Shown piece after piece: positions 1,112 to 49,050 of a stretch of DNA of 64,000 nucleotides (position 1 is the stretch's first letter; every line of letters starts with the position of its first letter). The notes under the pieces are model-generated. The model was not told the origin of the DNA. It saw only the letters and a program-made list of their open reading frames with translations, and did not search any database. The translations under genes and the position numbers were made by a program. Source of the DNA: Escherichia coli (GTDB lineage: Bacteria > Pseudomonadota > Gammaproteobacteria > Enterobacterales > Enterobacteriaceae); assembly GCF_002854065.1 (NCBI RefSeq), contig NZ_CP024147.1; one strand, given 5' to 3'.

Positions 1112-1137
1112 TCGTTCTGTAATATTTGATTGTCTGT

Positions 1138-1168
1138 GCCGGATGCGGCGTGAATGCCTTATCCGGCC
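1138..1168. repeat. REP (repetitive extragenic palindrome) element
   Basis: gccggatgcggcgtgaatgccttatccggcc, canonical E. coli REP/PU palindrome downstream of alr. Confidence 0.8.
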
Positions 1169-1363
1169 AATAAAATCCTACCAATTCAATAAGTTGATAT
1201 TCTTTCATGCTCTTATAAAGGTCGTGCCTCTGGCGGATGTACGTTTGTCATGAGTCTCACTCTGTTGCTAATTGCCGGTCGCCCCTGAACATCCACTCGA
1301 TCTTCGCCTTCTTCCGGTTTATTGTGTTTTAACCACCTGCCCGTAAACCTGGAGAACCATCGC

Positions 1364-2557
1364 GTGTTTCAAAAAGTTGACGCCTACGCTGGCGACCCGA
1401 TTCTTACGCTTATGGAGCGTTTTAAAGAAGACCCTCGCAGCGACAAAGTGAATTTAAGTATCGGTCTGTACTACAACGAAGACGGAATTATTCCACAATT
1501 GAAAGCCGTGGCTGATGCAGAAGCGCGCCTGAATGCGGTGCCTCATGGCGCTTCGCTTTATTTACCGATGGAAGGGCTTAACAGCTATCGCCATGCCATT
1601 GCGCCGCTGCTGTTTGGTGCCGACCATCCGGTACTGCAACAACAGCGCGTAGCAACCATTCAAACCCTTGGCGGCTCAGGGGCATTGAAAGTGGGCGCGG
1701 ATTTCCTGAAACGCTACTTTCCGGAATCAGGCGTCTGGGTCAGCGATCCTACCTGGGAAAACCACGTAGCAATATTCGCCGGGGCTGGATTCGAAGTGAG
1801 TACTTACCCCTGGTATGACGAAGCGACTAACGGCGTGCGCTTTAATGACCTGTTGGCGACGCTGAAAACATTACCTGCCCGCAGTATTGTGTTGCTGCAT
1901 CCATGTTGCCACAATCCAACGGGTGCCGATCTCACTAATGATCAGTGGGATGCGGTGATTGAAATTCTCAAAGCCCGCGAGCTTATCCCATTCCTTGATA
2001 TTGCCTATCAAGGATTTGGTGCCGGTATGGAAGAGGATGCCTACGCCATTCGCGCCATTGCCAGCGCTGGATTACCCGCTCTGGTGAGCAATTCGTTCTC
2101 GAAAATTTTCTCCCTTTACGGCGAGCGCGTCGGCGGACTTTCTGTTCTGTGTGAAGATGCCGAAGCCGCTGGCCGCGTACTGGGGCAATTGAAAGCAACA
2201 GTTCGCCGCAACTACTCCAGCCCGCCGAATTTTGGTGCGCAGGTGGTGGCTGCAGTGCTGAATGACGAGGCATTGAAAGCCAGCTGGCTGGCGGAAGTAG
2301 AAGAGATGCGTACTCGCATTCTGGCAATGCGTCAGGAACTGGTGAAGGTATTGAGCACAGAGATGCCAGAACGCAATTTCGATTATCTGCTTAATCAGCG
2401 CGGCATGTTCAGTTATACCGGTTTAAGTGCCGCTCAGGTTGACCGACTACGTGAGGAGTTTGGTGTTTATCTCATCGCCAGCGGTCGCATGTGTGTCGCC
2501 GGGTTAAATACGGCAAATGTACAACGTGTGGCAAAGGCGTTTGCTGCGGTGATGTAA
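1364..2557 (+). CDS. tyrB: aromatic amino acid aminotransferase
   Basis: ORF track frame 1322..2557; likely GTG start at 1364 ([14 protein letters not shown]...) giving 397 aa; class I aminotransferase motifs ([16 protein letters not shown]). Confidence 0.9.
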
Positions 2558-2778
2558 TGCAGGAAAGCAGGCTGGAGTTACCCAGCCTGCAGTGAAATTA
2601 AACTGTCGTCGCTTTCACTCTTTCTTTATAGATGATTTTTTTGATGCCATCGTTCTACGTAAGAGATAATAAACGTTGTTAGTTCTTTTATTGTTAAGCT
2701 TATCCCAATTATCTGGAATTCCTTATCCTGTTTTTTTGTGTGGAGTAATAATTTCTGCACATCTAACCATTATTAAAT

Positions 2779-3264
2779 TTAATAATAAGTATCGGGTTTG
2801 TTACGATAGAATTTTTCTATATCCTCAAGAATATGCTTTGCCTTATTGCCTGTGACTTTCTGAGATTCAATTATAGTATCGTTAAATTCTAAAGTTAAAG
2901 AGAACTCTTTTTTTCCGCTTTGTGTAAGTTTAACCTTATATTGATTACCAATATCAAATAAAAAGGTCCTGTAATGAGAATAATCACCTTTAACCTCCTC
3001 GGCAAAACAGCAAAGCGTGCAAATATACATAAAATCTTTCTTACCCCTGATTTTGTTAACTAAATCAATAAATGCGTGAAAAACTGTACTTGCAATAGAA
3101 CTTGATACTTCTTCTCCAGGTCTACAAAAATCTTTTGCAATTTTTAACTGTGTTTCTATATATAAAAAAAGATCTATGGCATAAGAGATATCTTTGTTAT
3201 TTAGTGCATCTAGCTCAACAGGTAAAGATGTCATTTTGTTGTTGTTCACATATGATATATTCAT
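2779..3264 (-). CDS. hypothetical protein, AT-rich gene of unknown function (161 aa from Met-14 of the 174 aa ORF)
   Basis: Uninterrupted minus-strand ORF 2779..3303 in a markedly AT-rich segment between tyrB and aphA; internal ATG at 3262-3264 is preceded by GGAG with an 8 nt spacer; no recognisable motif, no signal peptide. Confidence 0.5.
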   Translation of the reverse strand: MNISYVNNNKMTSLPVELDALNNKDISYAIDLFLYIETQLKIAKDFCRPGEEVSSSIASTVFHAFIDLVNKIRGKKDFMYICTLCCFAEEVKGDYSHYRTFLFDIGNQYKVKLTQSGKKEFSLTLEFNDTIIESQKVTGNKAKHILEDIEKFYRNKPDTYY

Positions 3265-3386
3265 ATCATCATCTCCATCGGGAGTAATAAAATTAGTCAC
3301 CATTGTAGGGTAGGGTTCTGGTCAATCAGAAATCATCTTTATAAACTTCGATTGTTTTTGTAATGCTGTATCATTAAGTTCATTAA

Positions 3387-4379
<993 letters not shown>

Positions 4380-4384
4380 CAGAG

Positions 4385-4421
4385 CGGGAGAGCGTGATGC
4401 TCTCCCGAATGCTGTTTTTTT
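4385..4421 (+). terminator. rho-independent terminator downstream of aphA
   Basis: cgggagagc-gtgat-gctctcccg hairpin followed by a T-run (ctgttttttt). Confidence 0.7.
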
Positions 4422-4489
4422 AATCACACCTTTATCCTTTCGCTGTCTTGCTGCAAACTGATTAAGAGAGTTTTATCAAGGAGCAGCAC

Positions 4490-4906
4490 ATGTGGTATCA
4501 AAAGACGCTCACGCTTAGCGCCAAATCTCGTGGGTTTCATCTGGTAACGGATGAAATTCTGAATCAGCTGGCTGATATGCCGCGCGTTAACATCGGCTTA
4601 CTGCATCTGTTGCTGCAACATACCTCCGCCTCTCTGACACTTAATGAGAACTGCGATCCCACCGTACGCCACGACATGGAGCGTTTTTTCCTCCGCACCG
4701 TTCCCGACAACGGAAATTATGAGCATGACTATGAGGGAGCAGACGATATGCCTTCTCATATCAAATCCTCAATGCTGGGAACATCGCTTGTATTGCCGGT
4801 GCATAAAGGGCGTATTCAGACCGGCACCTGGCAAGGCATTTGGCTGGGGGAACATCGCATCCACGGCGGATCGCGTCGCATCATCGCGACACTACAAGGG
4901 GAGTAA
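4490..4906 (+). CDS. yjbQ: UPF0047 family protein YjbQ
   Basis: 138 aa [26 protein letters not shown]..., conserved position. Confidence 0.85.
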
Positions 4907-4909
4907 AAA

Positions 4910-5266
4910 ATGACCATTTCGGAGTTGCTACAATATTGCATGGCAAAACCAGGCGCAGAACAGAGCGTGCATAACGACTGGAAAGCGACGCAGATCAAAG
5001 TGGAAGATGTACTGTTTGCGATGGTGAAAGAAGTAGAAAATCGCCCAGCTGTTTCGCTGAAAACCAGCCCGGAGCTGGCGGAGCTGCTACGTCAGCAGCA
5101 CAGCGATGTGCGTCCAAGCCGCCATCTGAATAAAGCGCACTGGAGCACCGTGTATCTCGACGGTTCGCTGCCAGATTCGCAAATCTATTATCTGGTGGAT
5201 GCGTCTTATCAGCAGGCGGTGAATTTACTGCCGGAAGAAAAACGTAAATTGCTGGTGCAACTCTGA
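4910..5266 (+). CDS. yjbR: uncharacterised protein YjbR
   Basis: 118 aa ORF 4 bp after yjbQ stop; conserved position. Confidence 0.8.
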   Translation: MTISELLQYCMAKPGAEQSVHNDWKATQIKVEDVLFAMVKEVENRPAVSLKTSPELAELLRQQHSDVRPSRHLNKAHWSTVYLDGSLPDSQIYYLVDASYQQAVNLLPEEKRKLLVQL

Positions 5267-5274
5267 AAGGAAAA

Positions 5275-5293
5275 GGCCGCTCGGAAAGCGGCC
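5275..5293. terminator. bidirectional hairpin terminator between convergent yjbR and uvrA
   Basis: ggccgc-tcggaaa-gcggcc stem-loop located between the two stop codons. Confidence 0.55.
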
Positions 5294-5300
5294 TTAACGA

Positions 5301-8123
5301 TTACAGCATCGGCTTGAGGAAGCGTGCCGTATGCGAAGCTTCGCACTCCGCGACGGTTTCTGGCGTACCGGAGACGAGGATTTCGCCGCCGCCACTGCCG
5401 CCTTCTGGTCCCAGGTCGACAATCCAGTCAGCGGTTTTGATCACGTCGAGATTGTGCTCAATCACCACAATGGTGTTGCCCTGATCGCGCAGTTTATGCA
5501 GTACGTCGAGCAGTTGCTGAATATCGGCGAAGTGCAGACCGGTGGTCGGCTCGTCGAGAATATACAGCGTCTGCCCGGTGCCGCGTTTTGACAGCTCACG
5601 CGCCAGCTTCACGCGCTGGGCTTCACCACCAGAAAGTGTGGTTGCGGACTGCCCCAGGCGAATGTACGTCAGACCAACGTCCATCAACGTTTGCAGCTTA
5701 CGCGCCAGAGCTGGCACCGCATCAAAGAACTCACGCGCCTCTTCGATGGTCATATCCAGCACTTCGTGGATGGTTTTGCCTTTGTACTTAATCTCCAGCG
5801 TTTCACGGTTATAGCGTTTACCTTTGCACTGGTCGCACGGCACGTAAATGTCCGGCAGGAAGTGCATCTCCACTTTGATCACGCCATCGCCCTGACAGGC
5901 CTCGCAGCGTCCGCCACGGACGTTAAAGCTGAAACGTCCTGGCGTATAACCACGCGCACGGGATTCCGGTACGCCCGCAAACAGTTCGCGCACAGGCGTA
6001 AACACGCCGGTATAGGTCGCCGGGTTAGAACGCGGAGTACGACCAATTGGGCTTTGGTCGATATCGATTACTTTGTCGAAATGCTCCAGTCCCTGAATAT
6101 CGCGATACGGTGCCGGTTCGGCGATGGTCGCACCATTCAACTGGCGTTGGGCAATCGGGAACAGTGTGTCGTTAATCAGCGTCGATTTACCGGAACCTGA
6201 AACCCCTGTGATGCAGGTAAACAGACCGACTGGCAGCGTTAGCGTCACGTCTTTCAGGTTGTTGCCGCGTGCGCCAGTCAGCTTAAGTACTTTTTCCGGA
6301 TTCGCCGGAACGCGTTTCTTCGGCACTTCAATCTTGCGTTTACCGCTCATGTACTGTCCGGTCAACGACTCCGGCACCGCCATAATCGCTTCCAGCGGAC
6401 CTTCCGCGACCACTTCACCGCCATGTACACCTGCACCAGGACCGATATCGATCACATGATCAGCGGCGCGAATCGCGTCTTCGTCGTGCTCCACCACAAT
6501 CACGGTATTACCGAGATCGCGCAGATGGATAAGTGTACCCAACAAGCGCTCGTTATCGCGCTGGTGCAGGCCGATAGACGGCTCGTCCAGTACATACATA
6601 ACACCAACCAGGCCCGCACCAATCTGGCTCGCCAGACGAATACGCTGGGCTTCACCGCCAGAAAGCGTTTCTGCCGAGCGGGAAAGTGTCAGGTAATTCA
6701 GGCCGACGTTAACGAGGAATTTCAAACGATCGCCGATCTCTTTAAGAATTTTTTCCGCAATCTTCGCCCGCTGACCTGCGAGTTTGAGATTGTTGAAGAA
6801 TTCCATCGCATGACCAATGCTCATGTCGGAGATGGCGGGCAGCGGCGTATTCTCGACATACACGTGGCGCGCTTCCCGACGCAGACGCGTCCCTTCGCAG
6901 CTGGCACACGGACGATTACTGATAAACTTGGCTAATTCTTCGCGTACCGCGCTGGACTCCGTCTCTTTATAACGGCGCTCCATATTGTGCAGCACGCCTT
7001 CGAACGGATGACGACGAATGGAGGTATCGCCACGATCGTTCATGTATTTGAATTCAATGTTTTCTTTGCCAGAACCGTACAACACCACTTTATGCACGTT
7101 CGCGCTCAGGCTGCCCCACGGCGCTTCGACGTCGAACTTATAGTGATCTGCCAGCGATTTCAGCATCTGAAAATAATAGAAGTTGCGGCGATCCCAGCCA
7201 CGGATCGCACCACCTGCCAGCGACAGTTCCGGATTCTGGATCACGCGGTCAGGATCGAAATATTGCTGTACGCCGAGGCCGTCACAGGTCGGGCAGGCAC
7301 CTGCCGGGTTGTTAAACGAAAACAGTCGCGGCTCCAGTTCACGCATACTGTAGCCGCAAATTGGGCAGGCGAAGTTGGCGGAAAACAGCAGCTCTTCCGC
7401 TTTCGGGTCGTCCATATCCGCCACTACCGCGGTACCACCGGAAAGCTCCAGCGCGGTTTCAAACGACTCGGCAAGACGTTGGGTAAGATCGTCACGCACC
7501 TTGAAGCGATCAACCACCACTTCAATAGTGTGTTTCTTTTGCAGTTCCAGTTTCGGCGGATCGGAAAGATCGCAGACTTCGCCATCAATACGAGCACGGA
7601 TGTAACCCTGGCTTGCCAGGTTCTCCAGCGTTTTGGTGTGTTCGCCTTTGCGCTCTTTAATGATTGGCGCGAGCAGCATCAGACGCTTGCCTTCCGGCTG
7701 CGACAGCACGTTATCCACCATCTGGCTGACGGTTTGCGCCGCCAGCGGGACGTCGTGGTCCGGGCAACGCGGTTCGCCGACGCGGGCGAACAACAAACGC
7801 AAATAGTCGTGGATTTCGGTGATTGTCCCCACCGTAGAACGCGGGTTATGAGACGTCGATTTCTGCTCAATTGAGATGGCAGGAGAAAGCCCCTCAATAT
7901 GATCGACGTCCGGCTTTTCCATCAGTGACAGAAACTGCCGCGCGTAGGCGGAAAGGGATTCAACGTAACGGCGCTGCCCTTCGGCATATAAGGTGTCGAA
8001 AGCGAGCGAGGATTTGCCAGAACCCGAAAGCCCGGTCACGACAATGAGCTTGTCGCGGGGGATAACGAGGTTGATGTTTTTGAGATTATGGGTGCGGGCG
8101 CCCCGAACTTCGATCTTATCCAT
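5301..8123 (-). CDS. uvrA: excinuclease ABC subunit A
   Basis: 940 aa ORF; two ABC ATPase modules ([20 protein letters not shown]), zinc-finger cysteines. Confidence 0.95.
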
Positions 8124-8377: not shown

Positions 8378-8914
8378 ATGGCCAGCAGAGGCGTAAACAA
8401 GGTTATTCTCGTTGGTAATCTGGGTCAGGACCCGGAAGTACGCTACATGCCAAATGGTGGCGCAGTTGCCAACATTACGCTGGCTACTTCCGAATCCTGG
8501 CGTGATAAAGCGACCGGCGAGATGAAAGAGCAGACTGAATGGCACCGCGTTGTGCTGTTCGGCAAACTGGCAGAAGTGGCCAGCGAATATCTGCGTAAAG
8601 GTTCTCAGGTTTATATCGAAGGTCAGCTGCGTACCCGCAAATGGACCGATCAATCCGGCCAGGATCGCTACACCACAGAAGTCGTGGTGAACGTTGGCGG
8701 CACCATGCAGATGCTGGGTGGTCGTCAGGGTGGTGGCGCTCCGGCAGGTGGTAATATCGGTGGCGGTCAGCCGCAGGGCGGTTGGGGTCAGCCTCAGCAG
8801 CCGCAGGGTGGCAATCAGTTCAGCGGCGGCGCGCAGTCTCGCCCGCAGCAGTCCGCTCCGGCAGCGCCGTCTAACGAGCCGCCGATGGACTTTGATGACG
8901 ATATTCCGTTCTGA
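8378..8914 (+). CDS. ssb: single-stranded DNA-binding protein
   Basis: 178 aa; [30 protein letters not shown]-fold start, Gly/Gln-rich tail ending DFDDDIPF. Confidence 0.95.
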
Positions 8915-9722: not shown

Positions 9723-11309
9723 ATGAGTCATCGTGCACGACACCAATTACTGGCGTTGCCGGGCATTATCTTTTTAGTTCTCTTTCCCATCATTCTGTCG
9801 CTATGGATTGCCTTCCTTTGGGCAAAATCAGAAGTGAATAATCAGCTCCGAACCTTTGCTCAACTGGCACTGGATAAATCCGAGCTGGTCATTCGCCAGG
9901 CAGATTTAGTGAGCGATGCAGCAGAACGCTATCAGGGGCAAGTTTGCTCTCCAGCCCATCAAAAGCGAATGTTAAATATTATTCGTGGCTATCTTTATAT
10001 TAATGAATTGATCTATGCCCGTGATAACCATTTTTTATGCTCATCGCTGATAGCGCCTGTAAACGGCTATACGATTGCACCGGCCGATTATGAGCGTGAC
10101 CCTAACGTTTCTATCTATTATTACCGCGATACGCCTTTTTTCTCTGGCTATAAAATGACCTATATGCAGCGGGGAAATTATGTGGCGGTTATCAACCCTC
10201 TCTTCTGGAGTGAAGTGATGTCTGATGACCCGACATTGCAATGGGGTGTGTATGATACGGTGACGAAAACCTTTTTCTCGTTAAGCAACGAGGCCTCGGC
10301 AGCAACGTTTTCTCCGCTGATTCATTTGAAGGATTTAACCGTACAAAGAAATGGCTATTTATATGCGACAGTTTATTCGACAAAACGCCCAATTGCAGCC
10401 ATTGTTGCGACTTCATATCAACGTCTTATAGCCCATTTTTATAATCATCTTATTTTTGCGTTACCCGCCGGTATTTTGGGGAGTCTTGTTCTGCTATTAC
10501 TCTGGCTACGTATTCGACAAAACTATTTGTCTCCCAAACGCAAATTGCAACGCGCCCTAGAAAAACATCAACTTTGTCTTTATTACCAGCCAATAATCGA
10601 TATCAAAACAGAAAAATGTATCGGTGCTGAAGCGTTATTACGTTGGCCTGGTGAGCAGGGGCAAGTTATGAATCCGGCAGAGTTTATTCCGCTGGCAGAA
10701 AAGGAGGGGATGATAGAACAGGTAACTGATTATATTATTGATAATGTCTTCCGCGATCTGGGCGCGTACCTTGCAACACATGCTGATCGCTATGTTTCTA
10801 TTAATCTGTCGGCCTCCGATTTTCATACGTCACGGTTGATAGCGCGAATCAATCAGAAAACAGAGCAATACGCGGTGCGTCCACAGCAAATTAAATTTGA
10901 AGTGACTGAACATGCATTTCTTGATGTCGACAAAATGACGCCGATTATTCTGGCTTTCCGCCAGGCCGGTTACGAAGTGGCAATTGATGATTTTGGTATT
11001 GGCTACTCTAACTTGCATAACCTTAAATCATTGAATGTCGATATTTTGAAAATCGACAAATCGTTTGTTGAGACGCTGACCACCCATAAAACCAGTCATT
11101 TGATTGCGGAACATATCATCGAGCTGGCGCACAGCCTGGGGTTAAAAACAATCGCTGAAGGCGTCGAAACGGAGGAGCAGGTTAACTGGCTGCGCAAACG
11201 CGGCGTGCGCTATTGCCAGGGATGGTTCTTTGCGAAGGCGATGCCGCCGCAGGTGTTTATGCAATGGATGGAGCAATTACCCGCGCGGGAGTTAACGCGC
11301 GGGCAATAA
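9723..11309 (+). CDS. pdeC: c-di-GMP phosphodiesterase (CSS periplasmic domain + EAL)
   Basis: 528 aa from [11 protein letters not shown]-terminal TM, EAL-domain motifs ([22 protein letters not shown]). Confidence 0.88.
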
Positions 11310-11311
11310 AA

Positions 11312-11635
11312 CTACAGGCGGTGGCGATAATCGCTGGGAGTGCGATCAAACTGCCGACGGAAAACGCGGGAGAAGGTCTGCTGCGAGACATAACCCAGGT
11401 CCATTGCGATATCAAAAATCGGACGCTCGGTGGTGCGCAACTCAACGGCGGCCAGTAACAGGCGGCGTTGACGAATGTAATCGCCAAGCGTCTGATGCGT
11501 CACCGTGCGGAACATCCGTTGCAGGTACCACTTTGAATAGCCTGATTTTTTTGCGACGACATCAATGTTAAGCGGCTGGTCAATATGCTCGTCAATCCAT
11601 GCGATAAGATCCTGAATAATTTTCTGATGGGACAT
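11312..11635 (-). CDS. soxS: AraC-family superoxide-response transcriptional activator
   Basis: 107 aa MSHQKIIQDLIAWIDEHIDQPLNIDVVAKKSGYSKWYLQRMF. Confidence 0.95.
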   Translation of the reverse strand: MSHQKIIQDLIAWIDEHIDQPLNIDVVAKKSGYSKWYLQRMFRTVTHQTLGDYIRQRRLLLAAVELRTTERPIFDIAMDLGYVSQQTFSRVFRRQFDRTPSDYRHRL

Positions 11636-11720: not shown

Positions 11721-12185
11721 ATGGAAAAGAAATTACCCCGCATTAAAGCGCTGCTAACCCCCGGCGAAGTGGCGAAACGCAGCGGTGTGGCGGTATCGGC
11801 GCTGCATTTCTATGAAAGCAAAGGGTTGATTACCAGTATCCGTAACAGCGGCAATCAGCGGCGTTATAAACGTGATGTGTTGCGATATGTCGCAATTATC
11901 AAAATTGCTCAGCGTATTGGCATTCCTCTCGCGACCATTGGTGAAGCGTTTGGCGTGTTGCCCGAAGGGCATACGTTAAGTGCCAAAGAGTGGAAACAGC
12001 TTTCGTCCCAATGGCGAGAAGAGTTGGATCGGCGCATTCATACCTTAGTGGCGCTGCGTGACGAACTGGACGGATGTATTGGTTGTGGCTGCCTTTCGCG
12101 CAGTGATTGCCCGTTGCGTAACCCGGGCGACCGCTTAGGAGAAGAAGGTACCGGCGCACGCTTGCTGGAAGATGAACAAAACTAA
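11721..12185 (+). CDS. soxR: MerR-family redox-sensing regulator with [2Fe-2S] cluster
   Basis: 154 aa; C-terminal [17 protein letters not shown] cysteine cluster. Confidence 0.95.
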
Positions 12186-12214
12186 AGCGCCACAAGGGCG
12201 CTTTAGTTTGTTTT
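12184..12214. terminator. hairpin terminator overlapping soxR stop (possibly bidirectional)
   Basis: aaagcgcc-acaa-gggcgcttt followed by agtttgtttt. Confidence 0.6.
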
Positions 12215-12458
12215 CCGGTCTTTGTCTTTCTCTCTATCCCGCTGGTACACAGGAGGGTTTCCCCCGACGTCAACACACCTCATTCGAGCACGTGGTGGAG
12301 GTTCCGGTTGGTGTTGATGCTTTAATTGTATGTCACCGACGTTTCTTCGCCAGTGTAAAAGTATACTTTTTAGCCGCAATATTTTTGTCATCTCAGACGA
12401 TTTTTTATCGCAATCCTGAACGGTATACGGCTCGATAACGCTGCAATCTTGCGCATCG

Positions 12459-31570: not shown

Positions 31571-31712
31571 ATGCCTGATGCGACGCTGGTGCGTCTTATC
31601 AGGCCTACGTCAGACAGCGCAATAGCCTGATTTAGCGTGATTTTGTAGGTCGGATAAGGCGTTTACGCCGCATCCGACATCAACGCCTGATGCGACGCTT
31701 AACGCGTCTTAT
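31571..31712. repeat. BIME: cluster of three REP elements between gltP and yjcO
   Basis: gatgcctgatgcgacgc...gtcttatcaggcctac, gtaggtcggataaggcgtttacgccgcatccgac, gcctgatgcgacgcttaacgcgtcttatcgggcctat. Confidence 0.85.
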
Positions 31713-31722
31713 CGGGCCTATC

Positions 31723-41881: not shown

Positions 41882-42171
41882 ATAAATCTCCATTTATCAT
41901 TTATGTCGTAAATATGTAATCCATGCAAAATACGTCATTTAAAGCTGGTGTTATCATAATTGGGAAATTGCGACTTTAATAAGTGGAAGTGTGAGCAGAA
42001 CGATCCATTTTATTAGGCATTTGTGCTGAAGAGGGAAAATTACGGCATATTTATTACTATCATCAATAATGTGACCTGACTTATATTTTTATTATTTATA
42101 TTACTTTCAGCTTTCACTTCGACAAGAAGTACGCACAATGATTAATTAGATGAATGATGCGGAGTGTAACC

Positions 42172-42879
42172 ATGAAACCCGTCGTGCTGGTGGTGGATGA
42201 TGACACGGCTATCTGCGCACTGTTGCAGGACGTGTTAAGTGAACATGTCTTTACGGTTTCAGTCTGCCATACCGGACAGGAGGCCATATTGCGTATTGAG
42301 GGCGATCCTGACATTGCGCTGGTGGTGCTGGATATGATGCTACCCGATACCAACGGCCTGAGGGTATTGCAGCAAATCCAGAAACTGCGTCCGACATTGC
42401 CGGTGGTGATGTTGACCGGCATGGGCAGTGAGTCTGATGTGGTGGTCGGGCTGGAAATGGGCGCGGATGATTACATCTGCAAACCGTTCACCCCGCGGGT
42501 GGTGGTCGCACGACTGAAAGCGGTGTTGCGACGGGTTGGTGCGCTGGCGGTTAATGACGAGAAAAGCGCCGGGCTGTCATTCAATGGCTGGTATCTCGAT
42601 ACCATGCGCTGCCAGTTGCACAATCCGCTTCAGCAACATGTCGAGTTAACTCAGGGCGAATATGGCTTGTTACTGGCTCTGGCGCAAAACGCGCGTCGGG
42701 TATTGAGCCGCGAGCAGTTGCTGGCGTTCACCCACAGCGACAGCGTGGAGGTGTTTGATCGCACCATCGACGTATTAATCATGCGCTTACGACGCAAAAT
42801 CGAACTCAACCCGCATCAGCCGATGTTGATTAAAACTCTGCGCGGTCTGGGGTATGTCTTCGCTGCCGACGTGCATTAA
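42172..42879 (+). CDS. OmpR/PhoB-family response regulator (REC + winged helix)
   Basis: MKPVVLVVDDD...VVLDMMLPDTNG receiver motifs; C-terminal wHTH (LTQGEYGLLLAL...LRGLGYVF); GGAG 7 nt upstream of ATG. Confidence 0.85.
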   Translation: MKPVVLVVDDDTAICALLQDVLSEHVFTVSVCHTGQEAILRIEGDPDIALVVLDMMLPDTNGLRVLQQIQKLRPTLPVVMLTGMGSESDVVVGLEMGADDYICKPFTPRVVVARLKAVLRRVGALAVNDEKSAGLSFNGWYLDTMRCQLHNPLQQHVELTQGEYGLLLALAQNARRVLSREQLLAFTHSDSVEVFDRTIDVLIMRLRRKIELNPHQPMLIKTLRGLGYVFAADVH

Positions 42880-43877
42880 TCCGACATTTCTGTTTGCAGC
42901 TCTTCCAGCGTTTTCGCCCCGTCGATGGCATTGGCGCATAACAGGCTTGCCCGCGCGCAGGCGTGTGCCAGTTTGATGCTCTCGGTAAGCGTCCAGCGTT
43001 CATGGCAGCCATATAAAAATCCGGCACAAAATGCATCGCCCGCGCCGACGCTGCCGATAATTTCCCGTTGTTCTAACTTTTGCGAAGGGATCCACACGCC
43101 GCCCTGTTCTGGGGTCTCTCCCCACGCCCCTTCCGGGCAGTGGATCACCACCCGCTGGCGCACGCCCGCATCTAACAGTTCACGCGCGGCGGCAGCAATA
43201 TGCGCGATATGCGGTTCGCCGTTGGGTAACCGAATTTCCAGCCCGCTAAACTCCCCGGCCTCCAGTTCGTTAATTACCAGATAATCCAGATGGCGCAACG
43301 CGGGCAGCACCAGCGGCTGATAACGCGGATCGCCCTTACGGGAGACCAGGTCGAGTGAGGTTTCAAAGCCAGTATCACGCATTTGCGCCAGCAGGCGTGC
43401 GCTACGGGTGCCGTAAACATCGTCCGGCATATCCAGGCTGTCGAGCAACAGTAAATAGCCGAGATGGAAAATCTTCATGGTGTTATCGAGCTGATCGAAC
43501 GCCGGAAGATCCAAAAGTCTGTTTGCACCCGGCGAATGGAAAAACGTCCGCTGCCCGCTTGGGTCTGTCATCACCTGCGACATCGACGTCGGGGCAAAGG
43601 TAGTGCGCTGCACATGCTGACGATTGACGTGATATTGCTCAAGCATCGCCATGATGTAATCGCCGTCGCTGTCCTGACCGATTAGCCCAACCGCCTGTAA
43701 CGGTAGCCCGGTGCGCATTTTCGCCAGCGTCAGCAGGACGTTAAGCGGCGCACCGCCGGTGGAGCGTTCGCTGTGGGTGATCTCCGCCAGCCAGCCGCGC
43801 TCTGGCCACTGGATAATCTGATGGACGTGGTCAACCAACATATTGCCTGCGGCGATAATCCCTTTACGCTCCATCAT
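42876..43877 (-). CDS. PfkB-family carbohydrate kinase
   Basis: 333 aa; N-terminal GG motif (GGAPLNV) and PfkB signature VGAGDAFCAGFL. Confidence 0.82.
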   Translation of the reverse strand: MMERKGIIAAGNMLVDHVHQIIQWPERGWLAEITHSERSTGGAPLNVLLTLAKMRTGLPLQAVGLIGQDSDGDYIMAMLEQYHVNRQHVQRTTFAPTSMSQVMTDPSGQRTFFHSPGANRLLDLPAFDQLDNTMKIFHLGYLLLLDSLDMPDDVYGTRSARLLAQMRDTGFETSLDLVSRKGDPRYQPLVLPALRHLDYLVINELEAGEFSGLEIRLPNGEPHIAHIAAAARELLDAGVRQRVVIHCPEGAWGETPEQGGVWIPSQKLEQREIIGSVGAGDAFCAGFLYGCHERWTLTESIKLAHACARASLLCANAIDGAKTLEELQTEMSD

Positions 43878-44734
43878 GCCTGCCCCGCACTGCCAAAAAT
43901 ACGCATCTGTTGTGCAACCGTATCGCTGATGGCGGCTTCCACTGCCAGCAGTAACTCGGCAAACTCGTCATACATCGGCTGACGGTGCGCCATTCGGGCC
44001 TCAACGGCAGCCAGCGCCGCTTGCGACATGCCAGTGTAGAAATTGATTTTGTGGATACCCAGTTCGATGGCGCGGCGGAAATCGGCATCACTAATCCCTG
44101 AGCCGCCGTGTAATACCAGCGGGATAGCAGCCTGCTGGCGGATAGCGTCGAGGCGCGGGAAATCGAGTTTCGGTTCGCCGCGATATTTGCCGTGTGCATT
44201 GCCAATCGCCACGGCCAACGCGTCAATGCCGGTACGGTCGACAAAATCACGCGCCAGTTGCGGATCGGTAAACAGGGATTCATCGGCATGACCATAGAGC
44301 GCACCGCCTTCGTCGCCACCCACCGCGCCCAGTTCAGCTTCTACCGATACGCCAACGGCATGGCACATTTTCACCACTTCCCGCGTCTGGCGGACATTTT
44401 CTTCATACCCCAGCGTGGAGCCATCAAACATTACCGAGCTGAATCCCAGCCGCAACGCTTGCACCACCGATTCAAAATGCAGTCCGTGATCGAGATTTAA
44501 CACCACCGGAATGGCATGACGCGCCGCTTCAAATTTCACTGTCTCGACCAGGGAATCCAGCGAGATATATTTAAAATGTACTTCGGCAATGTTGATAATA
44601 AAGGGCGAACGTTCTTGTCTGGCAGCAGCAAACAAGGCGCGTAAAAAGTGCGAGTCCAGCACATTAAACGCACCTAACGAATAGTGATGTTCGCGGGCAT
44701 GTGCCAGCCCTTCAGCGAGAGAAATCAATGGCAT
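43874..44734 (-). CDS. class II (zinc) ketose-bisphosphate aldolase, FbaA/GatY/KbaY family
   Basis: 286 aa; MPLISLAEGLAHAREHHYSLGAFNV, LNLDHG and LVLHGGSGI motifs. Confidence 0.82.
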   Translation of the reverse strand: MPLISLAEGLAHAREHHYSLGAFNVLDSHFLRALFAAARQERSPFIINIAEVHFKYISLDSLVETVKFEAARHAIPVVLNLDHGLHFESVVQALRLGFSSVMFDGSTLGYEENVRQTREVVKMCHAVGVSVEAELGAVGGDEGGALYGHADESLFTDPQLARDFVDRTGIDALAVAIGNAHGKYRGEPKLDFPRLDAIRQQAAIPLVLHGGSGISDADFRRAIELGIHKINFYTGMSQAALAAVEARMAHRQPMYDEFAELLLAVEAAISDTVAQQMRIFGSAGQA

Positions 44735-44748
44735 AACTTTATCCTTAT

Positions 44749-45432
44749 TCAGCGGAACTGGCGGTATTCGTTACACAATACCAACTGTGCAGGTTCGTCT
44801 TCGTCAATCAGGTTGTAGCGGGCCAGCGGGCGTAAAAAGTGGTTATCATGGTCGTCGTCATTGACTGAAGAGACTTCGCCAACCAGCACATCGCCAAAAC
44901 CGGTTTCCGCCCAAAAACTGTGATAAAGGCCGGGTGGCAGGCAGATACTTTCGCCGGGGGTCAGGCGTAACTGACTGCCTGCGACATGGGTCTGGCGGCA
45001 GCCGTCGATCACCACCGTAACGTCGGTATCAACTGTTTGCTCGTTGCTATCGGCATTCCACAGTTCAACAATCAAATTGCCGCCGCCGCGATTGATAATG
45101 TCCTCGCGCTTACGCCAGTGAAAGTGCATTGGCGTGACCTGCGCATCGCGCACATGCATGATCTTCTCGGCGTAACATTTCACATACGGCATTCCTTTTG
45201 CTGAGCCGTTACGTAGGGTAAACAGCGTCAGCCCCTGTGCTGCAAAGTTGTTGCCACCAAAAGCGGTAACATCCCAGCCGAGTTTGAGATCAAAAACTTC
45301 CTCCCACGCGGCGGTGTCGAGCTGCTGCCATTGGGCAGGCGAGAAACTGGCAAAGGGCGGAAGATGTACGTCATGTTGCGAAAAGAATTGCCGTGTATGG
45401 CCGAGAATGTCGTTTATAGCGGAGCGTTTCAT
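44749..45432 (-). CDS. cupin-type sugar isomerase (D-lyxose/D-mannose ketol-isomerase-like)
   Basis: 227 aa; cupin motif 1 HFHWRKRED and motif 2 PPGLYH; sugar-catabolic context. Confidence 0.7.
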   Translation of the reverse strand: MKRSAINDILGHTRQFFSQHDVHLPPFASFSPAQWQQLDTAAWEEVFDLKLGWDVTAFGGNNFAAQGLTLFTLRNGSAKGMPYVKCYAEKIMHVRDAQVTPMHFHWRKREDIINRGGGNLIVELWNADSNEQTVDTDVTVVIDGCRQTHVAGSQLRLTPGESICLPPGLYHSFWAETGFGDVLVGEVSSVNDDDHDNHFLRPLARYNLIDEDEPAQLVLCNEYRQFR

Positions 45433-45486
45433 CGAAAGCGTTCTCCTTAGCGGTGGCCGGGCAGCATCGCCGCCCGGCGTGTGGAC

Positions 45487-46428
45487 TTATTTCACCGTCC
45501 AGCCTTTGTAATTGCCGACGTTGTTTTTATCGATCATCGTCACCGGGATCAGCACCGGCTCTTTCGGCGCAGGTTTGCCCTGCAAAATGTCGTAGCCAAT
45601 TTCCACCGCTTTCGCTGCCATCACCTGGGGATCTTGCGCCGGAGTAGCGACAAACAACGAGTTCTCACGCTTGAGCGCCTCTTCGGCGTCCGGGCTTCCG
45701 TCCACACCGACAATAAAGAACTCGTTACGTTGCGCCTGTTTTGCTGCCAGATCGGCACCGATTGCGGTGGGATCGTTAATCGCAAATACGCCGTCGATCT
45801 TCGGATTTGCTGCCAGCAGTCCCGTCATTACCTCCAGCCCGCCTTCACGACTGCCTTTCGCGTTCTGGTTGTCAGAGAGCACTTTGATGTCAGGATGGCG
45901 TTTAAATTCAGTCTGGCATCCTTCGACGCGGTTTTGCACGGCGGATACCGGCGGGCCGTTGATGATCACCACATTGCCTTTGCCTTTCAGGCGATCGGTG
46001 ATGTATTTACAGGCCATTTCGCCCGCCTGGGTGTTATCGGAGGTGATGGTGGCATCAGCACCTTCTGCCGCTACGTCAACCGCGACAACTACGATCCCGG
46101 CATCTTTCGCCCGTTTCACCGCCGGGCCGATCCCTTTTGAATCGGCAGCGTTGAGGATAATCATATCGACGTTAGCGGCGATAAAGTTGTCTATCTGCGA
46201 CACCTGCTGACCCAGATCGTAGCCGCTGGAAACCAGCGTCACTTTGACGTTATCGCCTGCCAGTTTGCGTGCTTCCAGCTCCGCGCCTTTGGTGATCTGC
46301 ACGAAGAACGGGTTCGCCAGATCGCCCACCGTTACGCCTATTGATTTCAGTTCTTTCGCTTGGGCGAACGGTGCTGCGGCCAGCAGCGCGCCTGCACAGA
46401 GCGCGGTCACTAAGGGCTTCAATCTCAT
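45487..46428 (-). CDS. periplasmic monosaccharide-binding protein (ribose/allose-type)
   Basis: 313 aa; signal peptide MRLKPLVTALCAGALLAAAPFAQA; PBP type I fold hallmarks. Confidence 0.85.
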   Translation of the reverse strand: MRLKPLVTALCAGALLAAAPFAQAKELKSIGVTVGDLANPFFVQITKGAELEARKLAGDNVKVTLVSSGYDLGQQVSQIDNFIAANVDMIILNAADSKGIGPAVKRAKDAGIVVVAVDVAAEGADATITSDNTQAGEMACKYITDRLKGKGNVVIINGPPVSAVQNRVEGCQTEFKRHPDIKVLSDNQNAKGSREGGLEVMTGLLAANPKIDGVFAINDPTAIGADLAAKQAQRNEFFIVGVDGSPDAEEALKRENSLFVATPAQDPQVMAAKAVEIGYDILQGKPAPKEPVLIPVTMIDKNNVGNYKGWTVK

Positions 46429-46446
46429 GCTGTATTCCTCATGTGT

Positions 46447-47421
46447 TTATGCACTTTGATGGTGTCGGGTACGGTATTTGTCGATCAGCACCGCAATGAT
46501 GATCACCGCCCCTTTGATCACCAGTTGCCAGAAGTAAGAGACGCCCATTAAGGTCATGCCATTGTTGAGCGTGGCGATAATTAGCGCGCCGACCAGCGTG
46601 CCGGTGATGGTGCCGATGCCGCCGACAAAACTGGTGCCGCCGAGGATCACCGCCGCAATGGCGTCCAGCTCGTACCCCATACCTAAGTTGCCGTTGGCGC
46701 TGTACAGCCTTGAGGCGTTCATAATTCCGCCCAGCCCTGAAAGCAGGCCGCTCATACCATAAACAAACAGCAGCACCAGCCAGACCTTAATGCCGGTAAG
46801 ACGCGCCGCCTGCATATTGCCGCCGACGGCGTAGATATGAACGCCAAGCGTGGTGCGGCGCAGAATAAACCAGCACAGCACAATCACTGCGAGGGCAATC
46901 ACCACCAGCCACGGGACCGGCCCGAGATAGTTATTGCCTATCCACTCGAAATTAATGTTGGAGTTGATAACCGTGGTGCCGTCCGCCAGCAGATACGCCG
47001 CCCCGCGCAGCGCCGTATAGGTGCCAAGCGTGACGATAAACGGTGGCAATCCGGCAAAGGCCACCAGCGCGCCGTTGAACAGCCCCAGCAGCAGGCCGAG
47101 CATCAGCGCCGCCGGGATCGACAGCATGGCGAACTCAGGGCTAAGGGAGACGACCATCGCCGCCACCGCTGTGGTGCCGAGGATCGAACCCACGGAAAGA
47201 TCGATCCCGCCGGTCAAAATGATGAAGGTCATCCCCGCGGCCAGAACAATGTTGATCGATGCCTGGCGGGTAATATTCAGCAGGTTGCTTTCGGTAAAAA
47301 AGTTTGGCGCGATAAAGCCAAATACCGCCACGATCAGAATCAAAATGGGCAAGATGCCGACCGTTTGCATCAGATCGCTCATCAGCATTTTTTTGGCAGA
47401 AGTCTTTGCAGAGGTCGTCAT
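46447..47421 (-). CDS. sugar ABC transporter permease (RbsC/AlsC-like)
   Basis: 324 aa, ~10 TM segments. Confidence 0.85.
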
Positions 47422-48937
47422 GAGGGCACCGCCTGGGAATGGGCGTCGTTGACGCCAGTCGCTAAGGTCATAATGTTTTCCTGGGTGATGTTTTTGCCGT
47501 TTAACTCACCGGCAATGCTGCCTTCGCGCATCACATAGACGCGATCGCTCATTCCCACTATCTCCGGCAGTTCGCTGGAGATCATCAGGATCGCCACGCC
47601 CTTGCGCGCCATCTCGTTCATGATCCGGTAGATCTCGCTTTTTGCGCCAACGTCCACGCCGCGGGTGGGTTCATCGAGCAGTAAAATGCGCGGCCAATTG
47701 CCACCCAGCGGGAGATCAACAGCTTTTGCTGATTGCCGCCGGAAAGCCCGCCCGCGCGTACCTGGGCATGAGGCACGCGAATGTTGAGCAACTTGATGGC
47801 GTCATCGGAAATGGTTTGCGCTTTTTTGCGATTGAGCATTCCCCAGCGGGCATCGCGCTCCAGGGTCGCCATGGTGATGTTTTCGGCTGCCGCCATTTCA
47901 AGGAACAGCCCCTGTTCTTTGCGATTTTCGGTGAGAAAGCCAATGCCAAGATCGATGGCTTCGCGCGGGGAGTGGATCACCACCGGTTCACCATCGACTT
48001 CAATCATTCCGCCTGTCGCTTTCCGCACGCCGAAGATCAACTGCGCCAGTTCGGAACGTCCGGCACCCACCAGTCCGGCGAGGCCAACAATTTCGCCGGA
48101 ACGCACCAGCAGGCTACTCGGCTGGACTTTGCCGCCGTCGGTCAGGTGGTGAACATTCAGGCGGGCTTTACCGAGCGGGATATCGCGCTCTTTATTGAAC
48201 AGATCGCTCAGTGGCCTGCCGACCATCATCCGCACCAGCTCCCCGGCATTGAGGTTATCGCGGGTCAGGCTGCCAACGTATTGCCCGTCGCGCAGCACGC
48301 TGACGCGATCGGAAAGCTCATACACTTCCGCCATGCGGTGGCTAATGTAGATAATCGCCATCCCTTCATCGCGCAGCCGCATAATCAGTTCAAACAGGCG
48401 GTGAGTTTCGCGGGAGGAGAGGGCGGCGGTGGGTTCGTCCATCACCAGAATGCGGCTGTTGCGATGTAGCGCGCGGGCGATTTCGACCTGCTGTTGCTCG
48501 GCAATGGTCAGTGTCATGACCTTATCGCTGGCGTTAAACTGCGCGCCGAGGCGGTCGATCACTCTTTGCGCCTGCACCAGCATCTCTTTACGCTGCACCA
48601 GCCCGCCGTGGGAAAGCTCGCTACCGAGGAAAATGTTCTCTGCCACCGTCAAATTGGGCGCCAGCTGCATCTCCTGATAAATCAGCGTAATACCGGCGCT
48701 TAAGGCATCTTTTGGCGTGCGAATGTGAAAGGGCTTGCCGTCTATGAGGATCTCGCCGCTGGTGGCGGTATACGCCCCCGCCAGCACCTTCATCAGCGTG
48801 CTTTTTCCCGCGCCGTTTTCCCCCATCAGGGCATGGATCTCGCCAGGGTAGACCGTCAAATCCACCCCTTTGAGCGCATAAAATTTGCCGAAGGCTTTGG
48901 CAATATTGCGCATCTCCAGAACTGGCGTGCTGTTCAT
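47418..48937 (-). pseudogene. sugar ABC transporter ATP-binding protein (double ABC module), frameshifted near 47690-47700
   Basis: N-module Walker [10 protein letters not shown]; second signature LSGGNQQK; frame A ends ...[13 protein letters not shown] while frame B carries the expected continuation [13 protein letters not shown]...; consistent with a 1 bp loss in ggccgcgc (expected [10 protein letters not shown]). Confidence 0.75.
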
Positions 48938-49050
48938 GGTGGACTCCTGCGAGGTTGTCGATATCAGCACTCCATCACAGGAAAGTAAATGCAAAATGTC
49001 AGAAGCCGTTCATATTTGTCATATTGCGATTTTTCTTCACGGAGCGTGAT

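What the first reader, a model, noticed from the sequence alone, without database searches (positions are those of the whole stretch)
42870..42885. Convergent response-regulator and kinase genes with overlapping stop codons
The plus-strand regulator stops at TAA 42877-42879 and the minus-strand PfkB kinase stops at 42876-42878, so the two coding regions overlap tail-to-tail with no room for a terminator. Transcription of the catabolic operon must read into the regulator gene as antisense (and vice versa), which could provide built-in antisense or collision-based feedback on regulator expression.
Basis: seen in the sequence. Interest (0 to 1): 0.35.

Follow-up and report, generated by a model that had tools for sequence, protein, structure and literature searches.

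The report
Ordinary four-base tail-to-tail gene overlap
Two facing E. coli genes, the virulence regulator rbfR and the last gene of a neighbouring sugar operon, do share the four bases TTAA as their stop codons, but this is a common, evolutionarily unstable kind of overlap and nothing shows that it acts as a control device.

Summary
Window 42876-42879 is TTAA. It is the TAA stop of the plus-strand OmpR-family regulator (42172-42879) and, on the other strand, the TAA stop of the PfkB kinase (42876-43877). RefSeq annotates the same 4-base overlap. By context the regulator is RbfR (Z5684) of island OI-167. The kinase ends a six-gene sugar operon whose far end carries the partner kinase RbfS and conserved TorR-like boxes.

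Four-base stop/stop overlaps (TTAA, TTAG, CTAA, CTAG) are a known peak among convergent genes; one study counted 58 convergent overlaps in E. coli. In 73 related loci from over 20 named genera the two genes always converge, but the junction ranges from a 22-base overlap to 5.5 kb of inserted DNA. Parsimony needs at least 8 switches between overlap and no overlap. The Escherichia junction is a derived shortening of about 24-27 bases.

I found no terminator, stable hairpin or Rfam element at the junction. The 3' ends of the two transcripts must therefore be complementary for some distance, and Rho-dependent termination is the likeliest end point (inferred). Antisense or collision feedback on rbfR is possible but unsupported. 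Low interest.

The parts
42876..42879 (.). TTAA tetramer shared by the two stop codons (TAA of the regulator on +, TAA of the kinase on -)
   Evidence: Read directly; ORF ends; same overlap annotated in RefSeq.
42172..42879 (+). OmpR/PhoB-family response regulator gene, by context rbfR (Z5684). The longest ORF starts at 42154. PGAP starts at 42172, which has GGAG 7 bases upstream.
   Evidence: Pfam REC plus Trans_reg_C. It reaches no NCBIfam equivalog cut-off. PGAP coordinates. RbfR identity inferred from PMC9860305.
42876..43877 (-). PfkB-family carbohydrate kinase gene, the last gene of the sugar operon. Its start overlaps the aldolase stop by 4 bases.
   Evidence: Pfam PfkB 9.8e-36; PGAP annotation.
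43874..44734 (-). Ketose 1,6-bisphosphate aldolase (class II) gene
   Evidence: Pfam; NCBIfam NF005284, 577.9 bits against a cut-off of 406.
44749..45432 (-). D-lyxose/D-mannose isomerase gene (Z5688 type)
   Evidence: Pfam Lyx_isomer 1.2e-91; NCBIfam NF051472, 439 bits against a cut-off of 350.
45487..46428 (-). Sugar ABC transporter periplasmic binding protein gene
   Evidence: Pfam Peripla_BP_4 1.1e-56.
46447..47421 (-). ABC transporter permease gene
   Evidence: Pfam BPD_transp_2; annotation.
47418..48937 (-). ABC transporter ATP-binding gene, first gene of the operon. In this window it is broken by a 1-base deletion near 47692 (GGG to GG), a frameshift after codon 415.
   Evidence: Translations; tblastn split into two frames; alignment.
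49008..49024 (+). Tandem TorR-like boxes GTTCATAT-TTGTCATAT in the divergent region between the operon and the histidine kinase gene. Probable binding site of the regulator (inferred).
   Evidence: Sequence. It is the only match in the window at up to 3 mismatches. GTTCATAWTTGTCATA occurs in 60 of 79 related loci.
49051..51315 (+). Hybrid sensor histidine kinase gene, by context rbfS (Z5692)
   Evidence: tblastn; Pfam HAMP, HisKA, HATPase_c and REC, with no HPt; PMC9860305.
42792..42838 (-). The only terminator-like element downstream of the kinase stop: a weak interrupted hairpin (-10 kcal/mol) followed by UUUUGCGU, inside the 3' end of the regulator's coding region. Probably just the codons for NPHQPMLIKT.
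   Evidence: My relaxed scan. Not reported by the consensus scan. Folding of the region is unremarkable.
42356..42615 (-). C-rich, G-poor stretch of the operon read-through RNA (C/G 1.35-2.7), antisense to the regulator gene. Candidate Rho loading region (inferred).
   Evidence: Sliding C/G ratios.
42980..43200 (+). C-rich, G-poor stretch of the regulator read-through RNA (C/G 1.3-1.7), antisense to the kinase gene. Candidate Rho loading region (inferred).
   Evidence: Sliding C/G ratios.

Best explanation
This is an ordinary 4-base stop/stop overlap between two convergent genes, produced by neutral compaction rather than selected as a control device. In the Escherichia lineage a net loss of about 24-27 bases removed the last roughly six codons of the regulator, the short spacer and the last codon or two of the kinase. 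The regulator now ends ...ADVH-TAA. On the kinase strand its stop reads TTA and is followed by A, and that makes the kinase's own TAA. Because no terminator lies between or just beyond the stops, each transcript runs into the other gene as untranslated antisense RNA. There it is most probably ended by Rho, perhaps helped by occasional polymerase collisions when both promoters fire. Any effect on RbfR level is a by-product and is expected to be small. Shown: the anatomy, the gene identities, the lack of terminator or hairpin, the evolutionary instability of the junction and the derived state in Escherichia. Inferred: Rho-dependent termination, the extent of read-through and the absence of a regulatory role.
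For: The stops and genes are verified. Four-base convergent overlaps made of CTAA, TTAA, CTAG or TTAG are a known peak; 58 convergent overlaps were counted in E. coli, and stop-codon mutation fits the observed frequencies (PMC2174442). Eight annotated convergent pairs around this locus have gaps of -4, 2, 34, 76, 98, 153, 177 and 338 bases. In 73 orthologous loci the gaps are -22 (3 loci), -19 (2), -13 (2), -4 (13), 0 (2), 3 to 14 (15), 21 to 184 (20) and 499 to 5455 (16). On a tree of 71 loci, parsimony needs at least 48 changes of exact gap length, 23 changes among four gap classes and 8 switches between overlap and no overlap. The Escherichia type is sister to Citrobacter, where all 13 loci are non-overlapping, so its TTAA arose independently of the Enterobacter -4 state. 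All other lineages, including Tolumonas, keep about 6-7 more C-terminal codons in the regulator. There is no consensus terminator downstream of either stop and only one weak candidate in a relaxed scan. Fold z-scores around the junction are +0.56, +1.04, +0.50 and -0.01. Rfam finds nothing there. C-rich, G-poor stretches lie downstream on both read-through RNAs.
Against: 41 of the 73 loci have a gap of 14 bases or less, including the distant Tolumonas loci. A junction with no room for a terminator is therefore the commonest and probably ancestral state, which could reflect some benefit of coupling. The two genes converge in every locus where both were found. I could examine no 3'-end mapping or strand-specific coverage, so Rho-dependent termination and the size of any interference are inferences.
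Confidence: 0.72

Rival explanations
1. Built-in negative feedback. RbfR activates the sugar operon through the TorR-like boxes. The induced operon's polymerases then run off the kinase gene into rbfR from its 3' end. They lower RbfR output by head-on collisions and by antisense RNA pairing with the rbfR 3' end.
For: No terminator or hairpin separates the genes. Conserved TorR-like boxes at the operon/kinase promoter region make it plausible that the regulator drives the operon. The convergent arrangement is kept in all 73 loci, and 41 of them have a gap of 14 bases or less. Synthetic systems show that 3'-end antisense transcription represses a gene through collisions plus antisense RNA (PMC4731013).
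Against: The junction is very unstable. 36 of 73 loci carry spacers of 21-184 bases, some of them strongly folding palindromes (z -3.7 and -2.9), or 0.5-5.5 kb of inserted DNA, with both genes intact. Untranslated antisense RNA in E. coli is normally cut short by Rho (my knowledge of the field), and C-rich tracts are available. In the synthetic system, polymerases on translated mRNA survive about 85% of collisions. Operon expression is very low under most laboratory conditions (Z5688 read counts 0-90). In this window the first operon gene is frameshifted, which should lower downstream transcription further through polarity. rbfR rises 9.1-fold on induction by riboflavin.
Confidence: 0.13
2. 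Collision-driven bidirectional termination of the kind described for E. coli convergent pairs (Ju et al. 2019; bioRxiv 10.1101/2022.10.23.513370). The junction acts as a site where converging polymerases pause, meet and are released, giving defined overlapping 3' ends.
For: The pair is convergent and has no canonical intrinsic terminator. That mechanism is reported to control hundreds of E. coli genes and to be Rho-independent.
Against: Those elements encode an RNA stem-loop that sets the pause and collision site; without it, collision sites are scattered. No such structure exists here (z-scores 0 to +1). The mechanism also needs both units to be transcribed at the same time at appreciable rates, which is unlikely for a weakly expressed accessory locus.
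Confidence: 0.08
3. Intrinsic terminators embedded in the partner's coding region end both transcripts shortly after the stops, so antisense overlap is limited to a few tens of bases.
For: 20% of E. coli genes in convergent overlaps have a predicted intrinsic terminator inside the partner gene. A weak hairpin plus U-tract lies 38-84 bases past the kinase stop on the minus strand (42838-42792).
Against: That hairpin is interrupted, only -10 kcal/mol, and 7 bases away from its U-tract. The consensus scan does not report it. The region folds no better than shuffled sequence. Nothing at all is found on the plus strand.
Confidence: 0.07

Closest known systems
Short (4-base) convergent stop/stop overlaps of prokaryotic genes (Lillo and Krakauer 2007, PMC2174442)
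   Same: Two genes on opposite strands share one of the four permitted tetramers, here TTAA. Both stops are TAA. The origin fits loss or shift of a stop codon and extension up to the complement of the neighbour's stop.
   Different: Nothing essential. Here the overlap arose by a small deletion that shortened both proteins rather than by a 3' extension.
Bidirectional, collision-assisted terminators between convergent E. coli genes (Ju et al. 2019; Wang et al., bioRxiv 10.1101/2022.10.23.513370)
   Same: A convergent pair whose transcripts must have overlapping 3' ends, with no canonical intrinsic terminator.
   Different: Those sites lie in an intergenic spacer and encode a stem-loop that fixes the collision point. 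This junction has no spacer and no stable structure.
Transcriptional interference and cis-antisense control by convergent transcription (Brophy and Voigt 2016, PMC4731013; from my own knowledge also phage 186 pR/pL, prgQ/prgX and Listeria excludons)
   Same: The geometry would allow collisions and 3' antisense pairing between a regulator gene and the operon it probably controls.
   Different: In the known cases a dedicated antisense promoter or a long antisense transcript has been demonstrated. Here there are only two ordinary genes end to end, no expression evidence and an unconserved junction.
RbfS/RbfR (Z5692/Z5684) two-component system of EHEC island OI-167 (Liu et al. 2022, PMC9860305)
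   Same: A response regulator with PF00072 plus PF00486 and a TorS-like sensor kinase with PF00512 and PF02518. The locus is found in O157:H7, O145:H28 and O55:H7 genomes.
   Different: The paper does not discuss the six-gene sugar operon between the two genes or the tail-to-tail junction. I did not check identity against the EDL933 Z-numbered record.
TorS/TorR/TorT system of E. coli
   Same: An OmpR-family regulator and a hybrid kinase reported as TorS/TorR-like. Tandem decamers resembling the TorR box CTGTTCATAT (consensus from my knowledge) lie in the promoter region. A ribose-binding-protein-like periplasmic protein is encoded in the locus and gives a weak TorT hit, 5.7e-11.
   Different: The regulator scores below the TorR equivalog cut-off (163 against 275 bits) and the kinase far below the TorS cut-offs. 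No HPt domain is detected. The target operon is for sugar uptake and catabolism, not TMAO reductase. In tor, torR is divergent from torCAD, not convergent (my knowledge).

Membership tests
4-base convergent stop/stop gene overlap | Two protein-coding genes on opposite strands whose 3' ends overlap | tested here: met
   ORFs 42154..42879 (+) and 42876..43877 (-). Both have complete Pfam domains. Annotated the same way by PGAP.
4-base convergent stop/stop gene overlap | The shared tetramer is CTAA, TTAA, CTAG or TTAG, so both stops lie within 4 bases | tested here: met
   TTAA at 42876-42879. The list of tetramers is in PMC2174442.
Collision-type bidirectional terminator (Ju/Wang) | A stem-loop-encoding element at the convergent junction that acts as a pause site | tested here: not met
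   Fold z-scores +0.56, +1.04, +0.50 and -0.01 around the junction on both strands. No inverted-repeat terminator found.
Collision-type bidirectional terminator (Ju/Wang) | Sharp, overlapping, Rho-independent 3' ends of both transcripts | not testable with these tools
   Needs SEnd-seq or Term-seq. No such data were accessible.
Intrinsic terminator embedded in the partner's coding region | A G+C-rich hairpin directly followed by a U-tract downstream of the stop | tested here: inconclusive
   None by the consensus scan. One weak, interrupted candidate at 42838-42792 (-) by a relaxed scan and none on the + strand.
Cis-antisense or transcriptional-interference regulatory module | Demonstrated antisense transcript across the target gene and reciprocal expression | not testable with these tools
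   No strand-resolved data for Z5684/Z5685 in the papers or supplements held.
Cis-antisense or transcriptional-interference regulatory module | Conservation of the coupling architecture among orthologous loci | tested here: not met
   Orientation is conserved in 73 of 73 loci, but the junction ranges from -22 to +5455 bases with at least 8 switches between overlap and no overlap. Palindromic spacers and inserted genes are tolerated.
OmpR/PhoB-family response regulator | N-terminal receiver domain plus C-terminal winged-helix Trans_reg_C domain | tested here: met
   PF00072 1.2e-25 and PF00486 1.8e-22.
RbfR/RbfS (Z5684/Z5692) of OI-167 | Same genes as in EHEC O157:H7 EDL933 | tested here: inconclusive
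   Domain content, TorSR likeness and strain distribution match the paper. The window's junction is 100% identical to O157:H7 genomes over 201 bases. Z-numbered locus tags were not available to me, so the link rests on context.
TorR (equivalog NF008034) | Score at or above the curated cut-off of 275 bits | tested here: not met
   163.2 bits. OmpR, VirG, PhoB and CreB models score higher, and all are below their own cut-offs.

The most novel reading that the evidence does not exclude
The terminator-less tail-to-tail junction between a TorR-like regulator gene and the 3' end of the sugar operon it probably activates is ancestral: the gap is 14 bases or less in 41 of 73 loci, including Tolumonas. 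It could work as a simple negative-feedback or dampening device. Induced operon transcription would invade rbfR and limit RbfR, and in EHEC that would also limit LEE virulence gene activation. Lineages with palindromic spacers or inserted genes would have lost or relaxed this coupling.
Probability: 0.12. Interest if true: 0.4.

Novelty: already known. Interest (0 to 1): 0.12.

Why it matters
It matters little. If the feedback idea were true, sugar-operon activity would be wired to the level of RbfR, a regulator shown to raise type III secretion and virulence in EHEC O157:H7. That would be a modest but real addition to how metabolism and virulence are linked. As the evidence stands, the junction is a routine case of genome compaction. 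The more useful by-products are contextual. rbfSR sits inside a sugar uptake and catabolism locus that is widespread in Enterobacteriaceae and carries conserved TorR-like boxes, which suggests that the system's original job is sugar sensing. The first transporter gene of that operon is damaged in this window and in an O157:H7 genome.

Tried and rejected
1. Annotation artefact, meaning the true stops lie elsewhere. Rejected: both stops are the first in-frame stops after complete Pfam domains, and PGAP agrees.

2. Intrinsic terminators near the junction. The consensus scan found none downstream of either stop; its two hits lie on the minus strand upstream of the kinase stop, inside the kinase gene. 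My relaxed hairpin-plus-T-tract scan found one weak site on the minus strand and none on the plus strand.

3. A structured RNA element at the junction. Folds are no better than shuffled sequence, and Rfam finds nothing there.

4. Expression evidence. The EDL933 strand-specific transcriptome paper gives only Z5688 counts, and its supplements lack Z5684-Z5692. The RbfSR paper has no supplements held. Later papers only repeat it.

5. Confirming the Citrobacter spacers as REP elements with Rfam. There was no naRNA4 or REP hit, only fdhF SECIS elements nearby. I therefore call them REP-like, on the basis of their folding and my knowledge of the REP consensus.

6. In alignment A1 I gave wrong coordinates for the C. 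braakii row. That row should be ignored.

7. Counting the frameshift allele of the ATPase gene with an 81-base query. Only 111 genomes were retrieved, because the O157 alleles share no 28-base exact word with the window. The count is therefore incomplete.

8. A second copy of the TorR-like boxes upstream of rbfR, which would suggest autoregulation. None was found at up to 3 mismatches.
Full report
**1. Observation**

Window 42870-42879 reads cgtgcattaa. The plus-strand ORF 42154..42879 ends with TAA at 42877-42879. The minus-strand ORF 42876..43877 ends with TAA, read as TTA at 42876-42878 on the plus strand.

Both ORFs are real genes with complete domains:
- The plus-strand protein has a receiver domain (PF00072, 1.2e-25) and a complete Trans_reg_C domain (PF00486, profile positions 2-77 of 77).
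- The minus-strand protein matches PfkB over profile positions 24-300 of 302.

RefSeq/PGAP annotates the same 4-base overlap in three places: E. coli O145 RM9872, O157:H7 PV15-279, where the coordinates coincide with the window (42172..42879 and 42876..43877), and the most divergent E. coli copy found, which is 93.5% identical. PGAP starts the regulator at 42172, which has GGAG 7 bases upstream.

**2. What the locus is**

The window is E. coli chromosome. The region lies between yjcS and yjdP/phnP. The 201 bases around the junction occur in 410 of 5426 complete E. coli genomes, including O157:H7, O55:H7 and O145.

On the minus strand there is a six-gene operon with typical 4-base start/stop couplings:

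| Gene | Window coordinates |
|---|---|
| ABC ATPase | 47418-48937 |
| Permease | 46447-47421 |
| Periplasmic binding protein | 45487-46428 |
| D-lyxose/D-mannose isomerase | 44749-45432 |
| Ketose 1,6-bisphosphate aldolase | 43874-44734 |
| PfkB kinase | 42876-43877 |

A hybrid histidine kinase gene (49051-51315, plus strand) is divergent from the operon.

The literature identifies Z5692/Z5684 of island OI-167 as the two-component system RbfS/RbfR. It is TorS/TorR-like, responds to riboflavin, activates ler, and is present in O157:H7, O145:H28 and O55:H7 (PMC9860305). Domain content, neighbourhood and strain distribution match. I therefore take the regulator to be RbfR and the sensor to be RbfS. 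This is an inference from context, because I could not see Z-numbered tags. That paper says nothing about the operon between the two genes or about the junction.

**3. Is it more than chance?**

No. Lillo and Krakauer (PMC2174442) describe a jump at length 4 in the distribution of convergent overlaps. [quoted passage not shown] They count 58 convergent overlaps in E. coli and find that stop-codon mutation explains the observed frequencies.

The reason is mechanical. The complement of a TAA or TAG stop reads TTA or CTA on the other strand. If a purine follows, it forms a stop one base along, so a neighbour in that reading phase cannot extend any further.

Around this locus, eight annotated convergent pairs have gaps of -4, 2, 34, 76, 98, 153, 177 and 338 bases. 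The 2-base case is pdeC/soxS at window 11309/11312.

**4. Comparative evidence**

A scan of one genome per species returned 79 related loci in Citrobacter, Enterobacter, Buttiauxella, Kosakonia, Lelliottia, Leclercia, Atlantibacter, Tolumonas and other genera. The full gene order, with sensor kinase divergent, six operon genes and regulator convergent, is seen in 56 loci. It is partly seen in the rest, where flanks are short.

The kinase and the regulator converge in all 73 loci where both were found. The distance between their stops varies widely:

| Gap between stops (bases) | Number of loci |
|---|---|
| -22 | 3 |
| -19 | 2 |
| -13 | 2 |
| -4 | 13 |
| 0 | 2 |
| 3 to 14 | 15 |
| 21 to 184 | 20 |
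| 499 to 5455 | 16 |

- Several of the medium spacers fold into strong palindromes: z -3.66 and -2.91, with 0 of 200 shuffles folding as well. They look like REP elements to me, although Rfam did not confirm that.
- The longest spacers contain whole genes, including transposase-like, LysR-like and MarR/GNAT-like ORFs. I named those from their sequences and did not run them against family libraries.
- On a neighbour-joining tree of the concatenated isomerase, aldolase and kinase proteins (71 loci), parsimony needs at least 48 changes of exact gap length. It needs 23 changes among four gap classes and 8 switches between overlap and no overlap.
- The Escherichia type is sister to Citrobacter, where all 13 loci have gaps of 0 to 154 bases. 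Its -4 state is therefore independent of the Enterobacter/Lelliottia/Leclercia -4 state.

Alignment A1 (ignore the C. braakii row, which has wrong coordinates) shows the Escherichia junction to be about 24-27 bases shorter than its relatives. Elsewhere the regulator ends ...ADVQHHDKAA-stop or similar, including in Tolumonas. In Escherichia it ends ...ADVH-stop. The kinase loses one or two codons. The E. coli TTAA is therefore a derived product of a small deletion.

Within the Enterobacter group the kinase tails differ in length, yet they all stop at the complement of the regulator's stop. This illustrates the backstop effect described in section 3.

**5. Termination and structure**

- The consensus scan finds no terminator downstream of either stop. 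Its two hits are on the minus strand at 43048-43021 and 43051-43033, upstream of the kinase stop and inside the kinase gene.
- My relaxed scan finds nothing on the plus strand. On the minus strand it finds one weak interrupted hairpin (-10 kcal/mol, 42838-42800) followed by UUUUGCGU, inside the codons for NPHQPMLIKT.
- Folding 101-121 base windows across the junction on both strands gives z-scores of +0.56, +1.04, +0.50 and -0.01.
- Rfam has no match there.
- Both read-through RNAs meet C-rich, G-poor stretches: the plus RNA at 42980-43200 (C/G up to 1.7) and the minus RNA at 42615-42356 (C/G up to 2.7).

From general knowledge that Rho ends untranslated and antisense RNA in E. coli, I infer that both transcripts are most likely terminated by Rho some 100-500 bases inside the partner gene. 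This step is not shown. If it were not terminated, minus-strand read-through would continue into yjcS, which lies on the same strand.

**6. The feedback hypothesis**

The hypothesis is mechanistically possible. Tandem TorR-like boxes, GTTCATAT-TTGTCATAT, sit at 49008-49024 between the operon and rbfS. They are the only such match in the window, and GTTCATAWTTGTCATA occurs in 60 of 79 related loci. The regulator therefore probably drives the operon, and induced operon transcription would run into rbfR. Synthetic work shows that antisense transcription from a gene's 3' end represses it through collisions and antisense RNA (PMC4731013).

Several points count against a selected role:
- The junction is unstable across lineages, and spacers and inserted genes are tolerated (section 4).
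- There is no pause or hairpin element of the kind used by collision-type bidirectional terminators.
- In the synthetic system, polymerases on translated mRNA survive about 85% of collisions.
- Operon expression is very low under most laboratory conditions: Z5688 gave 0-90 reads in eleven conditions.
- In this window, a frameshift in the first operon gene should reduce downstream transcription through polarity.

One point stands in favour. 41 of the 73 loci have 14 bases or fewer between the stops, so a junction with no room for a terminator is the commonest and probably ancestral state.

I put the neutral explanation at about 0.7 and real feedback at about 0.12-0.13.

**7. Novelty and verdict**

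The overlap is already visible in public annotation and belongs to a textbook class. The regulator is a characterised protein. No new kind of system is involved, so interest is low (0.12). The decisive tests are 3'-end mapping with and without bicyclomycin, and RbfR measurements with the operon promoter removed, over-driven or insulated by a terminator.

Noticed in passing
window 47418-48937 (about 47692): The ABC transporter ATP-binding gene, first gene of the sugar operon, carries a 1-base deletion in a GGG run. This shifts the frame after codon 415 of 506. None of the 111 complete E. coli genomes retrieved with an 81-base query has this allele. It may be a real pseudogene or an assembly error.
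   Followed up: partly
L082 47418-48938 (O157:H7 PV15-279): In this O157:H7 genome the same ATPase gene has a premature stop 19 codons before the end, and PGAP flags it as a pseudogene. O145 RM9872 has an intact gene. The transporter may be decaying in O157:H7 while rbfSR is kept.
   Followed up: partly
window 49008-49024: Tandem TorR-like boxes GTTCATAT-TTGTCATAT lie between the operon start and rbfS. They are conserved in 60 of 79 related loci across many genera, and many loci carry a third, inverted copy (TTATGAATAG). This suggests the native target of the regulator is the adjacent sugar operon.
   Followed up: partly
window 42172-51315 and loci L003-L081: The whole unit of rbfS, sugar operon and rbfR is syntenic in more than 20 enterobacterial genera and in Tolumonas. 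In E. coli it occurs in 410 of 5426 complete genomes, including isolates from wastewater, otter, horse, chicken and vegetables. This is wider than the 'only EHEC and O55:H7' distribution reported in PMC9860305. It hints that sugar sensing, not riboflavin sensing, is the ancestral role.
   Followed up: partly
window 49051-51315: The hybrid sensor kinase has HAMP, HisKA, HATPase_c and a receiver domain, but Pfam detects no HPt domain. TorS, by contrast, has one. How phosphate reaches the regulator in vivo is therefore not obvious, although direct transfer was shown in vitro (PMC9860305).
   Followed up: no
window 11307-11314: pdeC (+, stop TAA 11307-11309) and soxS (-, stop at 11312-11314) converge with only 2 bases between their stops. 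This is a second junction in the same window with no room for a terminator.
   Followed up: partly
window 12178-12318 (-): The sRNA sraL (Rfam RF01408, 153 bits) overlaps the last 8 bases of the soxR ORF (11721..12185, +) on the opposite strand. It is another convergent transcript overlap in this window.
   Followed up: no
window 31648-31718 and 61451-61531: There are two naRNA4 matches (Rfam RF02564). By my knowledge this family is REP-derived. The first lies in the 177-base spacer of the convergent pair gltP/yjcO, the more usual look of a convergent junction.
   Followed up: no
L004, L010, L011, L014, L030, L035, L043, L056 at about 8480-8650: In Citrobacter and several other genera the fdhF SECIS element lies about 0.7-0.8 kb beyond the start of the regulator gene. 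The locus therefore sits next to fdhF there. In E. coli, mdtNOP, ytcA and yjcS lie between them.
   Followed up: no
window 16000-18900 versus L082 17486-18821: The window differs from O157:H7 around the espX5 region. The BLAST matches are broken, with one piece only 96% identical, and the window shows several 167-246 aa minus-strand ORFs there instead of one 430-aa gene. The window is only about 98.6% identical to O157:H7 overall and is closest to non-O157 strains such as CUWW06.
   Followed up: no
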